The position numbers and the translations under genes are program-made. 64,000 bases of DNA from a virus, in IMG/VR virus record IMGVR_UViG_3300037148_000025, positions 25,415 to 89,414 of that record. The stretch is one strand, 5' to 3'. How positions within the stretch are numbered: position 1 is the first letter of the stretch; every line of letters begins with the position of its first letter. The notes under the pieces are model-generated. The model worked only from the letters and a program-made list of their open reading frames with translations, was not told the DNA's origin and did not search any database. This document shows positions 56,867 to 64,000 of this stretch, one piece after another.

Positions 56867-57334
56867 TTAGTTAAAGTCAAGAATCTCAAGCATGCTGCCA
56901 GCGCCAGAGGTTGTCAGCTTGTTATCTAAACTATTCGACAATTCGTTTACCTGCAAGACTCCTATACAACGGGCATCTGGAGCAAACTTATGAATAGCTT
57001 TCTGTATGTTCGTTGCCGTCTCTCCGCTCGATATAAGGTCATCCACTATAACATACTTCTTACATGCTCTGTTTCCTTCTACCCTATGAGAAGAGTGGCA
57101 ATTTCGTGTAGACTTTCTCACCATAATCAAGGGCTTATTGATCCGACTGGCAATCGCTGGAGCAATTAGTGCTCCCGACATCCCAGTAAATGCTATGCTG
57201 TCGAATTCTTTTGCATACTTTTTTAAAACTTTTGCCGCCAAGACATATCTATTTTTAGCTGCAACTGGATCGAGATAATACTTCAGGTAGTCACAAGTTT
57301 GGTACTCGGGAACATGTTTTGTAGTCTTTTTCAT
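56867..57334 (-). CDS. Type I phosphoribosyltransferase
   Basis: VRK loop and PRPP-binding VIVDDLISSGET. Confidence 0.9.
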   Translation of the reverse strand: MKKTTKHVPEYQTCDYLKYYLDPVAAKNRYVLAAKVLKKYAKEFDSIAFTGMSGALIAPAIASRINKPLIMVRKSTRNCHSSHRVEGNRACKKYVIVDDLISSGETATNIQKAIHKFAPDARCIGVLQVNELSNSLDNKLTTSGAGSMLEILDFN

Positions 57335-57852
57335 ACAACTGCTCCCGCAAATGCTTTGCTGGCACTTTCGTCAGATTCTTGCAGATACGCTCCTGTGCTG
57401 CCAATGTTCTTATGTCCCAGATACTGCCTTACTCTCTGAATGCCTATCTTGTCGATAGCAACCATCGCACAGGCATGTTTAAGAGCATGGGGGTGTAGTT
57501 TGTGCTTCGGAATCCCGGCACGCTGTCCGGCTCTTTGAAACATATTGTACACCCCAAATCTGGTGATTTTGAACAAACGCTCTTTAGACCCAAGAGTACC
57601 AAGAAGTTTGGTTAGACCTTCATACTCATCTAAATCAGGATCAGGGTGCTTAACGAACGGCTGGATAGTTTTAAGAGAACCTTTCAATCGTTGTACTCTC
57701 ACATAACCATCACGAATATCTTCTCCAGTAAGGTTTATTAGCTCCGACACTCTTAGCCCGTGGAGAAAACCCATTTTGATAAGCAACTTCCAGCGTTCGT
57801 TAGGAACCTCATGGATGAGCGCCTTGATCTCGATTGGAGTTAGTGCCTGCAT
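57331..57852 (-). CDS. Minimal tyrosine recombinase (catalytic domain only, FimB/XerC-like)
   Basis: HGLRVSEL, RLKG, HPHALKH, LGH..I.ST..Y. Confidence 0.9.
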   Translation of the reverse strand: MQALTPIEIKALIHEVPNERWKLLIKMGFLHGLRVSELINLTGEDIRDGYVRVQRLKGSLKTIQPFVKHPDPDLDEYEGLTKLLGTLGSKERLFKITRFGVYNMFQRAGQRAGIPKHKLHPHALKHACAMVAIDKIGIQRVRQYLGHKNIGSTGAYLQESDESASKAFAGAVV

Positions 57853-59274: not shown

Positions 59275-59303
59275 AGTATACCACGTTTGTCCTGCATTGT
59301 CAA
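59275..59303 (-). promoter_or_regulatory. Sigma70-type early promoter
   Basis: TTGACA-N17-TATACT(GTAC). Confidence 0.8.
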
Positions 59304-59590
59304 GTCTTTTTTCGATTATATCCAGAAAGTTGTTCTGCCAACTCACGATCAAGAAGTACATACAGCTTGGGGCGCGGGTCGCTAGAATCAGTGAAATACT
59401 TAAACTCTTCCTCATCATAACAGAATGCAGCAGCTTCAAACATTCCGTTGTCAACTACTACAATAAGTGCCTTGCCTTCTGGTATATCGCTGTAGGCTCT
59501 TGGTGAATATTTTAGGACAATTCCATCCCATTCAGCGGCAATCGTTGCCGCTTTGCCAAAATTTCCTTTTGTCTCAATATAGTATCCCAT
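59300..59590 (-). CDS. Conserved phage hypothetical protein
   Basis: MGYYIET...VVDNG.FEAA..CYD..E...F...D.RP. AGGAG RBS. Confidence 0.7.
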   Translation of the reverse strand: MGYYIETKGNFGKAATIAAEWDGIVLKYSPRAYSDIPEGKALIVVVDNGMFEAAAFCYDEEEFKYFTDSSDPRPKLYVLLDRELAEQLSGYNRKKT

Positions 59591-59629
59591 AGATTTTCTC
59601 CTTTCCGTTTGTTTCCTTGCCATTGACTA

Positions 59630-60583
59630 CTACAGCTTCCAACCATACAGGCTACCGCCAACCTTCAAACCATTCGGGAGTTCCTTGAGGCCCGTGCAAC
59701 CGTAGAGAGACAGGTAACCGCCAACCTTCAAACCATTCGGGAGTGCCTTGAGGCCCGTGCAACTGTCGAGACACAGGCTACCGCCAACCTTAAAACCATC
59801 CGGGAGTGCCTTGAGGCCCGTGCAACCGAAGAGAGACAGGATACCGCCAACCTTCAAACCATCCGGGAGTTCCTTGAGGCCCGTGCAACCGTAGAGAGAC
59901 AGGTGACCGCTAACCTTCAAACCATCCGGGAATGCCTTGAGGCCCGTGCAACCGAAGAGAGACAGGTCACCGCTAACCTTCAAACCATCCGGGAGTGCCT
60001 TGAGGCCCGTGCAACCGCAGAGAGACAGTTTACCGCCAACCTTCAAACCATCCGGGAGTTCCTTGAGGCCCGTGCAACCGTTTAGATACAGGTCACCGCC
60101 AACCTTCAAACCATCCGGGAGTGCCTTGAGGCCCGTGCAACCGTCGAGAAACAGGTAACCGCCAACCTTCAAACCATCCGGGAGTGCCTTGAGGCCCGTG
60201 CAACCGTCGAGAAACAGGTAACCGCCAACCTTCAAACCATCCGGGAGTGCCTTGAGGCCCGTGCAATCGTAGAGAGACAGGTCACCGCCAACCTTCAAAC
60301 CCCTTTTGAACCGTTCCTGTAACGCCTCTCTAGTACGGGTTTCGCACGTTACCGCATCAAACCAACCCGGCATTATATCCTGATCGACTTTGTATTGCCA
60401 AGACGCAAAGTCCATCAAATCGGTTACGTTTTTTGTAGGCGATACTTCCACTCGAAGAACATTGGGACCGGCTACACCGTCTGCGTGAAGTGAATTCTCA
60501 CTGATGATGTCCTCGTGAGAATCACTCTCGTCGCACCAAAAAATCGAATCTTTCGTTAGTACAAAGCTTGCGAAGTTGCACAT
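59630..60583 (-). CDS. Leucine-rich-repeat protein A (10 x 21-aa LRR)
   Basis: About 96-aa N-domain followed by xLxLxGCTGLKxLPxGLKVGG repeats. Confidence 0.92.
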   Translation of the reverse strand: MCNFASFVLTKDSIFWCDESDSHEDIISENSLHADGVAGPNVLRVEVSPTKNVTDLMDFASWQYKVDQDIMPGWFDAVTCETRTREALQERFKRGLKVGGDLSLYDCTGLKALPDGLKVGGYLFLDGCTGLKALPDGLKVGGYLFLDGCTGLKALPDGLKVGGDLYLNGCTGLKELPDGLKVGGKLSLCGCTGLKALPDGLKVSGDLSLFGCTGLKAFPDGLKVSGHLSLYGCTGLKELPDGLKVGGILSLFGCTGLKALPDGFKVGGSLCLDSCTGLKALPNGLKVGGYLSLYGCTGLKELPNGLKVGGSLYGWKL

Positions 60584-60602
60584 TGTTTTTCTCCTCTCAA
60601 TT

Positions 60603-60631
60603 ACTCTACCAAATCTTTGTTAGTTTGTCAA
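60603..60631 (-). promoter_or_regulatory. Sigma70-type promoter of LRR-A
   Basis: TTGACA-N17-TAGAGT with TG. Confidence 0.65.
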
Positions 60632-60716
60632 GTAAAAAATGAAAAATAACTCAATCTCTCGGCCCTTGTAGAATGCCTTGTAGCCATAGGTGTGTCCCTG
60701 ATTAGTTACCAGTATC

Positions 60717-60935
60717 TCAGTCATGGCGCTCTCCAAATGACTTGATCTCATACTCCCGGCAATAGCATACTCCGTCTTCTACAGCAGCCGGATCATTAGT
60801 AAAGACAGTGTAGATTGCTTTGTTAGCTGAGTCATAACGAACGCTCTTGATAGTTCCCAGTACATCGATACTAAAAATGATTACTCGATCACCGGGCAAA
60901 AACGTTGTTGACTTGTCCACTAATGTTTGTGTCAT
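60717..60935 (-). CDS. Small SH3-like hypothetical protein
   Basis: F.PGDRV...G.I..V pattern. Confidence 0.55.
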   Translation of the reverse strand: MTQTLVDKSTTFLPGDRVIIFSIDVLGTIKSVRYDSANKAIYTVFTNDPAAVEDGVCYCREYEIKSFGERHD

Positions 60936-61264
60936 TACTCTACCTCCACATATTCATCGCACAGTGTGAGTACCGCATCATAGCCCCTAGACTGTGCAGC
61001 CTTGTGCATGAACTCTTTGGCCCGTGAAGGTAAACCGGCTTGCTTAAGCGTACGGTTTACACGAGCAATGATAGAGAACACGTTGCCATCTTCGCCCACT
61101 AGCTTACAGGGCGGTTTCTCCCCGGCAATGCGCCTTCTTGCTAACTCTTTCCCAAGAACTTCTATGGCCCGTGTGTCTTCTCGGTCCATAGCATTCGCGT
61201 ATTCTCCAGACAGACGGTCCTCAGACCATGTGTCTATGTAAATGTAATAGCTCAAATCCGTCAT
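60935..61264 (-). CDS. Conserved phage hypothetical protein
   Basis: KP..KLVGEDGNVFSII.RV...L..AG motif. Confidence 0.75.
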   Translation of the reverse strand: MTDLSYYIYIDTWSEDRLSGEYANAMDREDTRAIEVLGKELARRRIAGEKPPCKLVGEDGNVFSIIARVNRTLKQAGLPSRAKEFMHKAAQSRGYDAVLTLCDEYVEVE

Positions 61265-61309
61265 TCTCTGCCTCTTTCAAGTACCAAAACGGTTATAGAG
61301 ATTGTTTTA

Positions 61310-61495
61310 CTACGTTGCTGGATATTTCGGCGCTTCGATTGCTTCCAAGTCGGCCAAATATGCCTTAGCACTGGCAATGCGATTGGAAAGTTTAAGACGC
61401 TTGGTGTAGTTTGTTTCGGTTGATAGTGTATTGGTGTCCCGTGCGATTTCTGCACGGAAAAAGTCGGGCGTGTATGCCGGTAATCCAATGTTCAT
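61310..61495 (-). CDS. Hypothetical protein
   Basis: GAGGA RBS. Confidence 0.5.
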   Translation of the reverse strand: MNIGLPAYTPDFFRAEIARDTNTLSTETNYTKRLKLSNRIASAKAYLADLEAIEAPKYPAT

Positions 61496-61551
61496 TTTGT
61501 CCTCTCAGTTCTTGGTAAAATGTTGTGGAGACTTTCAGTCTCGTTGCTGCG

Positions 61552-61800
61552 TTAGATGAAAAGAGTGTCAGCGTGGAAGTGAAGGATTAAAATTGATTCT
61601 TGCTTGTTTGCAACCTTGACCTCTTGTGCAATTGTCTCAACTACTTCGGGACCAACGTTCACAAGGTCGATTGCAAGGCTGTCTTCCCACTCTCCCTTGT
61701 ACATTCCGGAACCATACGTCAAGGTTGCTCCCATAACGTGACGTGCAAGAATAGCTTCAATCGAATCACGGTTTACATCTTCGGTTAGAATTCTGTACAT
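61552..61800 (-). CDS. Hypothetical protein
   Basis: G.T...G.G.YKG..E.S...IA..VK..NKQESIL motif. GGAG RBS. Confidence 0.65.
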   Translation of the reverse strand: MYRILTEDVNRDSIEAILARHVMGATLTYGSGMYKGEWEDSLAIDLVNVGPEVVETIAQEVKVANKQESILILHFHADTLFI

Positions 61801-61825
61801 CTTTTCTCCAATCAGAAAGCTTACT

Positions 61826-61930
61826 TGCTCTCCCATAGCCGCTCCTAGATGTGTTTAAGTAACGCTGCATTGGAATTCAATCCGTCTTTAGGCGTCACCG
61901 CATTACCATTAGAGCGGCTATGGCAGAGCA
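61826..61930 (-). ncRNA. Putative structured RNA (long stem enclosing a multibranch domain)
   Basis: UGCUCUGCCAUAGCCGCUC/GAGCGGCUAUGGGAGAGCA (18 of 19 paired), with inner GUAAUGC/GCGUUAC. Confidence 0.55.
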
Positions 61931-61966
61931 CGTGTGTCTTACTCTGCCAGTTGTCTTACTTCTCCG

Positions 61967-62218
61967 TTAGGTTACAAAGAACCGTGTAGGCTTAGTTTCA
62001 GACTTTTCAGCCGTCTTCGCTTCGGCCTGTTCGATGTTATACTCGGCCTGTGCCATCTGGTCAAGTACCTCAGCGTTTGCGGACAATGCTTCTTTAGCAT
62101 CTTCCAGAGAATTCGTGTATATGCCAGCTTCTAGCATGTCCTCTTCTAGCTTAGTGACTGCCAGAAGTGTAATCTGTGCGAGTATTGCTAGCATCCCCAG
62201 TTGTCCAGAACGTTTCAT
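61967..62218 (-). CDS. Hypothetical protein
   Basis: AAGGAG RBS. Confidence 0.6.
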   Translation of the reverse strand: MKRSGQLGMLAILAQITLLAVTKLEEDMLEAGIYTNSLEDAKEALSANAEVLDQMAQAEYNIEQAEAKTAEKSETKPTRFFVT

Positions 62219-62295
62219 GATCTCTCCTTTTCGGTTTGTACTGCGTTAACTTTTCCTTACATTCAAAGTGTCTCACACTTTGTAAAACTTGTCAA

Positions 62296-63069
62296 GTTTG
62301 TTTCCTTGCCATTGACTACTACCTCTTCCAACCATACAGGTTACCGCCAACCTTCAAACCCTTCGGGAGTGCCTTGAGGCCCGTGCAACCGTTGAGAGAC
62401 AGGCCACCGCTAACCTTCAAACCATCCGGGAGTGCCTTGAGGCCCGTGCAACCGTCGAGAAGCAGGTCACCGCCAACCTTCAAATCATCCGGGAGTGTCT
62501 TGAGGCCCGTGCAACCGTCGAGAGACAGGCTACCGCCAACCTTCAAAACATCCGGGAGTGTCTTGAGGCCCGTGCAACCGTCGAGACACAGGTAACCGCC
62601 AACCTTCAAACCATCCGGGAGTGCCTTGAGGCCCGTGCAACCGTCGAGATACAGGTAACCGCCAACCTTCAAACCATTCGGGAGTTCCTTGAGGCCCGTG
62701 CAACCGTTTAGATACAGGCTACCGCCAACCTTCAAACCCCTTTTGAACCGTTCCTGTAACGCCTCTCTAGTACGGGTTTCGCACGTTACCGCATCAAACC
62801 AACCCGGCATTATATCCTGATCGACTTTGTATTGCCAAGACGCAAAGTCCATCAAATCGGTTACGTTTTTTGTAGGCGATACTTCCACTCGAAGAACATT
62901 GGGACCGGCTACACCGTCTGCGTGAAGTGAATTCTCACTGATGATGTCCTCGTGAGAATCACTCTCGTCGCACCAAAAAATCGAATCTTTCGTTAGTACA
63001 AAGCTTGCGAAGTTGCACATTGTTTTTCTCCTCTCAATTACTCTACCAAATCTTTGTTAGTTTGTCAAG
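62296..63069 (-). repeat. LRR cassette copy B
   Basis: Direct repeat of 59607..60632, bounded on both sides by CTTGACA. Confidence 0.92.
62319..63020 (-). CDS. Leucine-rich-repeat protein B (6 x 21-aa LRR)
   Basis: N-domain identical to LRR-A, with a different repeat number and variable residues. Confidence 0.92.
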   Translation of the reverse strand: MCNFASFVLTKDSIFWCDESDSHEDIISENSLHADGVAGPNVLRVEVSPTKNVTDLMDFASWQYKVDQDIMPGWFDAVTCETRTREALQERFKRGLKVGGSLYLNGCTGLKELPNGLKVGGYLYLDGCTGLKALPDGLKVGGYLCLDGCTGLKTLPDVLKVGGSLSLDGCTGLKTLPDDLKVGGDLLLDGCTGLKALPDGLKVSGGLSLNGCTGLKALPKGLKVGGNLYGWKR

Positions 63070-63862: not shown

Positions 63863-64000
63863 CCGGACGCGCTACAGGCTAACGTCGTGCCTTGCCCATG
63901 ATGGTTTACCACCATCCACGGTCCCGGACGCGCTACAGGCTAACGTCGTGCCTTGCCCATGATGGTTTACCACCATCCACGGTCCCGGACGCGCTACAGG
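63863..64000. repeat. Perfect 61-bp tandem repeat (at least 2.3 copies, truncated by window)
   Basis: CCGGACGCGCTACAGG... starts at 63863, 63924 and 63985. Confidence 0.95.

What the first reader, a model, noticed from the sequence alone, without database searches (positions are those of the whole stretch)
59607..63069. Duplicated LRR cassette with VLR-like hypervariable repeats: candidate phage diversifying receptor system
Seen: two genes have identical promoter, RBS, about 96-aa N-domain and 3' tail, but 10 versus 6 copies of a 63-bp LRR unit. Synonymous sites across the 16 units are almost invariant. The three x positions of xLxLx vary widely: position 1 GAC/TAC/AAA/CAC/ATC/AGC/GGC (AAC in the cap), position 3 TCT/TTT/TAT/TGT/CTT, position 5 TAC/GAC/AAC/TGC/TTC. 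Established: these residues form the concave ligand-binding face of LRRs, as in lamprey VLRs. Inference: repeat shuffling or gene conversion between the copies generates a combinatorial library of early-expressed binders, probably against host defence proteins.
Basis: partly seen in the sequence, partly recalled or inferred. Interest (0 to 1): 0.85.

Follow-up and report, generated by a model that had tools for sequence, protein, structure and literature searches.

The report
Phage hypervariable LRR binder gene pair
An uncultured peat phage carries two copies of a gene that joins a conserved, unstudied head domain to a leucine-rich-repeat rod whose predicted binding face differs from repeat to repeat. 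The diversity is inherited and comes from recombination and selection, not from an antibody-like programme, and the same head occurs in about a thousand phage and prophage protein clusters.

Summary
Two cassettes on the minus strand (59607-60632 and 62296-63069) share an identical sigma-70-like promoter, RBS, first 300 coding nt and 23-nt tail. They carry 10 and 6 units of a 63-bp LRR repeat. Across the 16 units pS is 0.015 and pN is 0.116; at codons 7, 9 and 11 pN is 0.42 and pS is 0.005. AlphaFold gives a confident LRR solenoid (pLDDT 90; Z 18.4 to a solved 21-residue LRR).

The duplication is real: contigs from three independent peat runs join both cassettes to unique flanks. The order of units inside gene A cannot be verified.

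The complete 89-kb genome has no reverse transcriptase, deaminase or silent donor cassettes, so DGR- and VLR-type programmes are excluded. Relatives in metagenomes show unit gain and loss and block swaps between the copies. Gene B, however, is identical on 11 contigs, so change is slow and inherited.

New here: the 94-aa head (Cys2, His23, Glu46 invariant; no known fold) defines about 955 protein clusters. It is fused to many different near-identical hypervariable repeat scaffolds (8/9-aa and 19-21-aa periods). The closest analogues are TALEs, fungal NLR repeats with high internal conservation, and the Flavobacterium LRR loci. The target and the head's activity are unknown. The scan has noted similar phage LRR and octapeptide families on other DNA.

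The parts
59607..60632 (-). Cassette A (1026 bp): promoter, RBS, gene A and shared tail
   Evidence: Limits of identity with cassette B. It is 252 bp (4 x 63) longer than cassette B.
60603..60631 (-). Sigma-70-like promoter of gene A: TTGACA, 17 nt, TG-n-TAGAGT
   Evidence: Only two exact copies exist in the 89-kb genome.
60302..60583 (-). Gene A head domain (residues 1-94). Cys2, His23, Glu46, Pro49, Pro72 and Trp74 are invariant in the family.
   Evidence: AF2 pLDDT 94.2. No significant fold match was found.
59672..60301 (-). Gene A LRR array: 10 units of 63 bp (21 aa); units 2 and 3 are identical
59630..59671 (-). Gene A C-terminal cap (13 aa, ends GWKL) and stop codon
59607..59629 (-). 23-nt tail shared by both cassettes; it holds the ATG of the next gene (59300-59623)
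62296..63069 (-). Cassette B (774 bp): promoter, RBS, gene B and shared tail
63040..63068 (-). Promoter of gene B, identical to that of gene A
62739..63020 (-). Gene B head domain, 100% identical in DNA to that of gene A
62361..62738 (-). Gene B LRR array: 6 units of 63 bp
   Evidence: This exact protein is seen on 11 contigs.
62319..62360 (-). Gene B cap (13 aa, ends GWKR) and stop codon
60633..62295 (-). 1.66-kb spacer with about five small ORFs of unknown function. It is not part of the duplication and is replaced by unrelated DNA in a sister lineage.

Best explanation
Each gene encodes a small cytoplasmic two-part protein. The first part is a conserved 94-residue head of unknown fold with a candidate Cys2-His23-Glu46 active or metal site. 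The second is an LRR solenoid whose concave sheet shows three hypervariable residues per 21-residue unit. That is 30 such residues in A and 18 in B, and 69% of them are Tyr, Ser or Asp, which gives a custom protein-binding surface. Shown: the fold, the positions of variation, the excess of amino-acid-changing differences, and the lack of any dedicated mutator. Inferred: the arrays evolve by ordinary homologous recombination among the near-identical 63-bp units. This recombination causes unit gain and loss, block exchange between the two copies and between co-circulating strains, and gene conversion that keeps head and promoter identical. Diversifying selection keeps the three face codons different. 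This is inherited diversity of the TALE or fungal-NLR kind, not a per-infection programme. More speculative: the array aims the head, as an enzyme or as an adaptor to a conserved host machine, at a variable host or rival-phage protein early in infection.
For: LRR fold: AF2 pLDDT 90.3. VIA-align gives Z 18.4, rmsd 2.1 A over 152 residues to the LRR protein 8z5u_0, Z 16.4 to the XopL LRR, and Z 11.8 to the SspH1 LRR. phmmer gives E 2.8e-19 to 8z5u and 1.3e-11 to the RPP1 LRR. Selection signature: pN/pS is about 8 overall and about 88 at codons 7, 9 and 11, and variation is clustered there with P=0.0014. Face composition: D 11, Y 11 and S 11 of 48 residues, with only one Lys and no Arg. No mutator: no RT, no deaminase, no unit copies outside the two arrays. 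Recombination: P0123 is A units 1-2 joined to B units 3-6. P0124 is A units 1, 2 and 10. P0001 carries sister-lineage units in front of B units 3-6. Sister-lineage arrays differ by insertion and deletion of whole units. Conversion or recent duplication: related 88-90-kb phages also have two paralogs 1.5-2.8 kb apart, but in G003 they are only 60% identical in head DNA and have different promoters, against 100% here. In the sister lineage both cap types (GWKL and GWKR) carry the same five lineage-specific head substitutions. Family: the head finds 955 clusters at E<=1e-3 and always starts at residue 1. Cys is at residue 2 in 139 of 149 representatives. 100 of 136 have C-terminal tandem repeats with periods of 8, 9 or 19-21 aa, against 0 of 136 shuffles. 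An excess of pN over pS between units recurs in several relatives. Early-region context in a cultured phage: the Edno5 LRR gene lies between cI and exo/recT.
Against: Gene B's array is identical on 11 contigs, so turnover is not fast. The variant arrays come from short metagenome contigs and may be partly chimeric. Illumina assemblies are known to fail on such repeats (PMC12222747). pN/pS between repeat units is not a standard test, since units are not independent lineages and conversion confounds it. Some relatives show no excess: L008, L016, L025, L050 and Edno5. Surface exposure of the HV residues is inferred from strand geometry; I could not measure it on coordinates. Nothing shows binding, a target or any activity of the head. 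The head has no fold or family match. The supposed position near a genome end is not real: the 127-bp 'DTR' lies inside a 61-bp tandem array and looks like an assembly overlap. RNA-library contigs cover the region but do not prove transcription.
Confidence: 0.6

Rival explanations
1. Programmed diversification: a DGR-like adenine mutagenesis, or VLR/vlsE/pilS-like copying from donor cassettes, rewrites the arrays during the phage's life.
Against: The complete genome has no reverse transcriptase and no cytidine deaminase. There is no template or silent unit outside the two expressed arrays. The codons AAA, CTT and CTA do not fit adenine mutagenesis. Gene B is identical on 11 contigs. Relatives use W, R, E and K codons freely at variable positions.
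Confidence: 0.04
2. Neutral history: a very recent repeat expansion plus a local mutational hot spot, with no selection on a binding face.
For: The repeats are young (pS 0.015), and slippage or unequal exchange alone explains changes in copy number.
Against: 17 of 18 variable columns change the protein, and they cluster in three alternating codons of the beta-strand. The same positions vary in distant homologues with other heads. The Tyr/Ser/Asp bias is paratope-like.
Confidence: 0.07
3. The protein is a plain stoichiometric inhibitor or decoy. The head is only an N-terminal cap or oligomerisation module with no activity of its own.
For: LRR solenoids need caps. The head's last helix runs straight into unit 1. 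Many phage anti-defence proteins are simple binders (general knowledge).
Against: The same head sits on structurally unrelated scaffolds: LRR, 8-aa beta-solenoid and helical repeats. It keeps invariant polar residues Cys2, His23 and Glu46 and the near-invariant Asp-Gln-Asp, and it always starts at residue 1. This is more than a cap would need.
Confidence: 0.2
4. A TALE-like nucleic-acid reader: each unit reads a base through its three variable residues.
For: It has a modular one-unit, one-code architecture as in TALEs. The LRR part is basic overall (pI 8.5-8.8).
Against: The variable face is acidic and aromatic (11 Asp, 1 Lys and 0 Arg of 48). The basic charge comes from the invariant Lys3 and Lys17, which are off the face. 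The 21-aa LRR pitch does not match a DNA or RNA step (established LRR geometry).
Confidence: 0.04
5. The arrays as printed are partly assembly artefacts: the duplication is real, but the unit order and number are wrong, above all in gene A.
For: A units 2 and 3 are identical. Other assemblies give 3 units, or 5 units plus a frameshift. k=31 contigs all break in the arrays. The 127-bp terminal overlap points to a short-read assembler. Such repeats are known to defeat Illumina assembly (PMC12222747).
Against: Gene B was assembled identically 11 times. P0122, from a 44-kb contig, reproduces A units 1-5. Every unit is in frame and intact.
Confidence: 0.2

Closest known systems
Fungal NLR sensor repeats with high internal conservation (Podospora HET-E/HET-D WD40; PMC12222747, PMC4986451)
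   Same: The units are near-identical in DNA and kept so by concerted evolution. A few fixed codons per unit are hypervariable, under diversifying selection and on the interaction surface. Repeat number and order change by unequal exchange within and between paralogs. Short-read assemblies fail on them.
   Different: Those are WD40, ANK or TPR repeats in eukaryotic NOD-like receptors that trigger cell death. Here it is a 21-aa LRR behind a 94-aa head in a phage, and no NTPase is present.
TAL effector repeats of Xanthomonas
   Same: Tandem units are almost identical in DNA, with variation confined to fixed codons. Paralogs differ in unit number and order.
   Different: TALE units are 34-aa helical and read DNA bases. 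Here the fold is an LRR and the face is acidic and aromatic, which suits protein binding.
Flavobacterium psychrophilum tandem LRR protein loci (Altae-Tran et al. 2020, PMC10392669)
   Same: Prokaryotic LRR genes with 2-14 units, hypervariable positions on one face, and strain-to-strain recombination without mobile elements.
   Different: Those are secreted cell-surface proteins with T9SS signals, up to 19 genes in tandem with gene fragments between them. Here there are two intact cytoplasmic phage genes with a conserved head and their own promoters.
Lamprey variable lymphocyte receptors
   Same: An LRR scaffold with variable concave-face residues and a variable unit number.
   Different: VLRs are assembled somatically from hundreds of silent cassettes with an AID-like deaminase. 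This genome has no cassettes and no deaminase.
Bacterial short-unit LRRs: the 8z5u LRR protein of a polar flagellar motor, XopL, and IpaH/SspH LRR domains
   Same: The same LRR class by sequence and fold (E 2.8e-19 and Z 18.4; Z 16.4; Z 11.8). Some database homologues of the array carry a NEL E3-ligase domain.
   Different: These genes have no NEL, XL-box or secretion signal. The partner domain is the unstudied Cys-His-Glu head.
Edwardsiella phage Edno5 gene 0047 (cultured lambdoid phage)
   Same: A phage early-left-operon gene with seven near-identical 20-aa LRR units that vary at the same x positions of xLxLx.
   Different: It has a different, short N-terminus and a 75-aa C-terminal domain. 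Its units carry synonymous differences (pS 0.19 > pN 0.12).

Membership tests
Leucine-rich repeat superfamily | Repeating LxxLxLxx(N/C)xxL core motif of 20-30 residues | tested here: met
   Every one of the 16 units reads V-G-G-x-L-x-L-x-G-C-T-G-L-K-x-L-P. Pfam LRR_EndoS scores 34.9 bits for A (cut-off 27.9) and 27.7 for B, just under the cut-off.
Leucine-rich repeat superfamily | Solenoid fold with one short strand per unit forming a parallel sheet | tested here: met
   The AF2 model (pLDDT 90.3) has periodic strands at the Lx of xLxLx. Z is 18.4 to 8z5u_0, 16.4 to XopL and 15.5 to SHOC2.
Leucine-rich repeat superfamily | Significant sequence similarity to solved LRR domains | tested here: met
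   8z5u E 2.8e-19, RPP1 E 1.3e-11, SspH1 E 2e-4.
Repeats with high internal conservation and hypervariable sites (TALE / fungal NLR type) | Units more than 80% identical in DNA within a gene | tested here: met
   92% and 91% matches; pS 0.015.
Repeats with high internal conservation and hypervariable sites (TALE / fungal NLR type) | Variation confined to a few fixed codons, with an excess of replacement changes | tested here: met
   At codons 7, 9 and 11 pN is 0.42 against pS 0.005; clustering P=0.0014.
Repeats with high internal conservation and hypervariable sites (TALE / fungal NLR type) | Alleles and paralogs differ by gain, loss and shuffling of whole units | tested here: met
   Shown by P0001, P0123, P0124, P0125-P0130 and L159. 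Caveat: these are short-read metagenome assemblies.
Repeats with high internal conservation and hypervariable sites (TALE / fungal NLR type) | Hypervariable residues lie on the ligand-binding surface | tested here: inconclusive
   Inferred from their alternation with the core Leu8 and Leu10 in the modelled strand and from general LRR geometry. No coordinates or complex were available.
Diversity-generating retroelement | Reverse transcriptase in the element | tested here: not met
   No RVT_1 match at E<=1 in the complete 89,414-bp genome; the controls matched.
Diversity-generating retroelement | Template repeat paired with a variable repeat, differing at adenines only | tested here: not met
   No further unit copy exists outside the arrays. 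The codons AAA, CTT and CTA do not fit.
VLR-type or cassette gene-conversion systems | Bank of silent donor cassettes next to an expression site | tested here: not met
   Only two copies exist, each with its own promoter. Outside the arrays, blastn of a unit finds nothing beyond 11-13-nt chance matches.
VLR-type or cassette gene-conversion systems | AID/APOBEC-like cytidine deaminase | tested here: not met
   No PF00383 match in the genome; 12 of 14 controls matched.
IpaH/SspH NEL E3 ligases | C-terminal NEL domain with a catalytic Cys | tested here: not met
   Pfam finds no NEL in A or B. NEL is present only in some longer database homologues, such as P0006.
Listeria InlJ-type 21-residue cysteine-ladder LRR (a lead from earlier scan reports) | Specific similarity to InlJ (PDB 3bz5) | tested here: inconclusive
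   3bz5 is not among the sequence hits or the 50 best structural rows. Other internalins appear at Z of about 11.6-11.8.
Head-domain family (unnamed; MC-x-x-ASFVLTKD ... DSH ... DQD) | About 90-aa domain at residue 1 with Cys2, His23, Glu46, Pro49, Pro72 and Trp74 | tested here: met
   All six residues are present in A and B and invariant in a 125-sequence alignment. The family has 955 clusters.

The most novel reading that the evidence does not exclude
The head is a universal effector or adaptor module. It could be a small Cys-His-Glu enzyme that needs its free N-terminal Cys, or a dock for a conserved host machine such as a protease. Phages would then aim it at fast-evolving host or rival-phage proteins by plugging it onto interchangeable hypervariable solenoid scaffolds (LRR, octapeptide beta-solenoid, helical repeats). 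That would be a phage counterpart of F-box/LRR substrate receptors, and a natural, evolvable 'binder plus warhead' platform spread over about a thousand protein clusters.
Probability: 0.25. Interest if true: 0.88.

Novelty: new variant of a known kind. Interest (0 to 1): 0.7.

Why it matters
If the reading holds, phages own inherited panels of custom protein binders, built on the same evolutionary principle as TALEs and fungal immune receptors. These binders are tied to a conserved and wholly unstudied head domain. That gives a concrete handle on phage-host or phage-phage arms races in soil Acidobacteria and gut Clostridia. It also defines a new protein domain with a probable active site, and offers several natural, compact repeat scaffolds (8- to 21-residue units) with known variable positions for binder engineering. 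I found no paper that describes the head family or its link to hypervariable repeats.

Tried and rejected
I could not fetch the DNA of the closest variants (P0001, P0003, P0123-P0130). The viral and metagenome scans left the nearest relatives out, and only L159 was usable.
- Read laying served only k=31 contigs. The arrays are shattered, and 'other letters' inside them are cross-mapped units, so no population variant calls were possible.
- The single joint 60624->62289 in run X2 is not a deletion. It is the sister lineage's junction of the B tail with a reused promoter.
- Head-domain identification failed everywhere: Pfam, PHROGs, NCBIfam and PADLOC, PDB sequences, Foldseek PDB (best E 0.86), VIA-align wide (best Z 4.5, RNase-PH-like, below the noise level), BFVD (only two uncharacterised family members) and the ESM Atlas (scores 0.85).
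- The shufflon or integron idea is rejected. The 173-aa tyrosine recombinase at 57331-57852 is syntenic in only one related phage (L011) among about 140 loci.
- No RecT or ERF annealing protein is encoded in the genome.
- The pattern scan with the wide alignment A3 failed for lack of a conserved 7-mer.
- 'Near the genome end, hence early' is rejected. The 127-bp terminal repeat is an overlap inside a 61-bp tandem array, and the minus-strand block continues across it.
- Literature searches found no description of the phage family.


Full report
**What is there.** On the minus strand lie two genes: A (59630-60583, 317 aa) and B (62319-63020, 233 aa). The 49 nt before the ATG and the first 300 coding nt are identical in the two copies. 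The upstream stretch carries a near-consensus promoter, TTGACA, 17 nt, TG-n-TAGAGT, found only at these two places in the genome. Identity returns in the C-terminal cap and runs 23 nt past the stop codon. They differ in length by four 63-bp units. TRF reports 10.4 and 6.4 copies at 92% and 91% matches. In frame, each protein is a 94-aa head, then 10 or 6 units of 21 aa, then a 13-aa cap.

**Is the variation special?** Among the 16 units, 18 of 63 columns vary and 17 of these change the amino acid. Seven of the 18 lie in the nine bases of codons 7, 9 and 11 (P=0.0014). Pairwise Nei-Gojobori values are pS 0.015 and pN 0.116 overall. At the three codons they are pS 0.005 and pN 0.42; elsewhere pS 0.016 and pN 0.057. 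The 48 hypervariable residues include 11 Asp, 11 Tyr and 11 Ser, with a single Lys and no Arg. This make-up is typical of protein-binding paratopes and unlike a nucleic-acid reader.

**Is it an artefact?** The window is the right-hand 64 kb of an 89,414-bp IMG/VR record. Fourteen DNA runs and six RNA runs from peat and permafrost, dated 2020-2025, hold the stretch. In three DNA runs, separate contigs join A's 3' end, A's promoter, B's 3' end and B's promoter to their unique flanks without a single difference. The two cassettes are therefore real.

The inside of the arrays cannot be checked with k=31 contigs. Gene B's exact protein occurs on 11 contigs. Gene A is assembled elsewhere as 5 identical units plus a frameshift (P0122) or as 3 units (P0124). 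The figure '10' should therefore be treated as provisional. Repeats of this kind are known to defeat Illumina assembly (PMC12222747).

**Fold.** AlphaFold2 with 28 relatives gives pLDDT 90.3, with one short strand at the Lx of each xLxLx. The array is an LRR:
- Z 18.4 (rmsd 2.1 A, 152 residues, 36% identity) to the LRR protein in the flagellar-motor entry 8z5u;
- Z 16.4 to the XopL LRR, 15.5 to SHOC2, 14.0 to RPP1 and 11.8 to SspH1;
- phmmer E 2.8e-19 to 8z5u and 1.3e-11 to RPP1.

Residues 8 and 10 are the core leucines, so residues 7, 9 and 11 must point out of the concave sheet. This is inferred from geometry; I had no coordinates.

**No diversifying machine.**
- The complete genome has no reverse transcriptase and no cytidine deaminase.
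- It has no unit copies outside the two expressed arrays, and no RecT or ERF.
- The NNC/TNT/NNC look of the variable codons has exceptions: AAA, CTT, and CTA linked to AAC.
- Relatives use Trp, Arg, Glu and Lys codons freely at variable positions.

DGR-, VLR- and pilS/vlsE-type mechanisms are excluded.

**Evidence for recombination.** The 90%-identity clusters around gene B and a sister lineage hold informative variants:
- P0123 is A units 1-2 followed by B units 3-6.
- P0124 is A units 1, 2 and 10.
- P0001 has two sister-lineage units in front of B units 3-6.
- The sister-lineage arrays differ from one another by whole units: NYD-SSC-YYD-DLD, NYD-SSC-DLD, and NYD-SSC-DSD-GSY.

In that sister lineage, proteins with the A-type cap (GWKL) and with the B-type cap (GWKR) share the same five head substitutions. 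This points to homogenisation of the head within a genome. Locus L159 shows the sister lineage keeps the same layout: B-like gene, tail, 1.5 kb, next LRR gene. Its spacer DNA is unrelated, and the same promoter also drives another gene there.

Related 88-90-kb phages also have two paralogs 1.5-2.8 kb apart. In G003 the heads are only 60% identical in DNA and the promoters differ. The perfect identity here is therefore a recent conversion or re-duplication, while the arrays have stayed different. All these variants come from short-read assemblies and need long-read confirmation.

**The wider family.**
- The array module has more than 1,100 homologues joined to many other domains, including PcfJ-like, DUF6745 and NEL E3-ligase domains.
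- A cultured lambdoid phage, Edwardsiella phage Edno5, has seven 20-aa units that vary at the same positions. Its gene lies between cI and exo/recT.
- The head alone finds 955 clusters at E<=1e-3, always from residue 1. Cys is at residue 2 in 139 of 149 representatives.
- In a 125-sequence alignment Cys2, His23, Glu46, Pro49, Pro72 and Trp74 are invariant. Ser22, Trp62, Asp67-Gln68-Asp69, Arg83 and Arg85 are nearly so.
- 100 of 136 representatives carry C-terminal tandem repeats: period 8 aa in 52, 9 aa in 14, 19 aa in 10 and 20 aa in 7. None of 136 shuffled controls does.
- The scaffolds are of unrelated kinds: LRR-like, Gp5_C/FapA-like beta-solenoids, helical 'AAWDAARD' repeats, and pentapeptides. 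Each has two or three variable positions rich in Tyr, Asp, Trp, Arg, Cys and Gly. One subgroup has a non-repeat DUF6273-like tail.
- Relatives lie on 151 IMG/VR stretches and in 64 species genomes. The closest are in Acidobacteriia; many are in Clostridia.
- pN exceeds pS between units in several relatives (L014, L015, L032, L034, L085) but not in all.
- The head folds with pLDDT 94.2 into a small alpha/beta domain. It has no significant match in PDB by Foldseek or VIA-align, in Pfam, PHROGs, NCBIfam or PADLOC, or in the Atlas. BFVD returns only two uncharacterised phage proteins.

**Context.** The genes sit in a minus-strand block of small unknown ORFs with several host-type promoters. Nearby are an exonuclease, a PRTase and a catalytic-domain-only tyrosine recombinase. 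The recombinase is syntenic in only one relative, so no link to shuffling is proposed. The host is probably an acidobacterium: the primase/helicase is 54% identical to that of Tunturiibacter phage Tunturi_3, and the samples are peat. The 'direct terminal repeat' is 127 bp inside a 61-bp tandem array, and the minus-strand block continues across it, so nearness to a genome end means nothing.

**Verdict.** The best reading is an inherited pair of custom LRR binders. Their scaffold is kept uniform by recombination, and three face residues per unit are kept different by selection. This is the principle known from TALEs, fungal NLR repeats with high internal conservation (PMC12222747, PMC4986451) and the Flavobacterium psychrophilum LRR loci (PMC10392669). 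Here it occurs in a phage, behind a conserved head that looks catalytic or adaptor-like. 'Against host defence' is plausible but untested.

Other windows of this scan have yielded similar phage LRR families and paired octapeptide solenoids. I did not test those reports. They agree that such sets are inherited and that their targets are unknown.

Noticed in passing
window 63863-64000 (and the first bases of the genome record): A perfect 61-bp tandem repeat (at least 3 copies across the junction) holds the record's 127-bp 'direct terminal repeat'. The terminal repeat therefore looks like an assembler overlap at a collapsed tandem array, not a physical genome end. The array could be iterons or a packaging site.
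   Followed up: partly
window 57331-57852 (-): A 173-aa tyrosine recombinase that consists of the catalytic domain only (Pfam Phage_integrase E 8e-19), with no N-terminal DNA-binding domain. It lies next to a 155-aa phosphoribosyltransferase. The pair is syntenic (54% and 38% identity) right after the head-domain gene in the related 89.8-kb phage of locus L011.
   Followed up: partly
L159:229-282 and window 60580-60633: In the sister lineage, the same promoter and 5' leader that drive the LRR genes stand directly after the B-type tail and drive an unrelated gene. The promoter-leader is thus a reused module, and the 1.5-kb spacer between the two LRR genes is non-homologous between lineages.
   Followed up: partly
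L040-L081 (e.g. L058:4001-4765): A large, very uniform subgroup of the head family in 80-165-kb gut-type phage or prophage records has a non-repeat, weakly DUF6273-like C-terminal domain of about 160 aa in place of a repeat array.
   Followed up: partly
L182:2935-3678 (Edwardsiella phage Edno5, gene 0047): A cultured lambdoid phage carries a 247-aa protein with seven near-identical 20-aa LRR units that vary at the xLxLx positions. The gene lies in the early-left operon between cI and exo/recT. It is annotated only as hypothetical and is a ready experimental handle.
   Followed up: partly
window 62895-63027 and 60458-60590: In every peat run laid, a second head allele with 9 differences in 133 bp occurs at about the same depth as the window's allele. 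Head-region depth is several-fold above that of the unique flanks. The cassette is therefore carried by more genomes in these samples than this phage alone.
   Followed up: partly
P0006, P0037, P0044, P0070, P0080 (homologues of the array): Some bacterial proteins join the same short-unit LRR to a NEL (IpaH/SspH-type) E3-ligase domain. One is on a 1.28-Mb contig from an NCBI genome.
   Followed up: no
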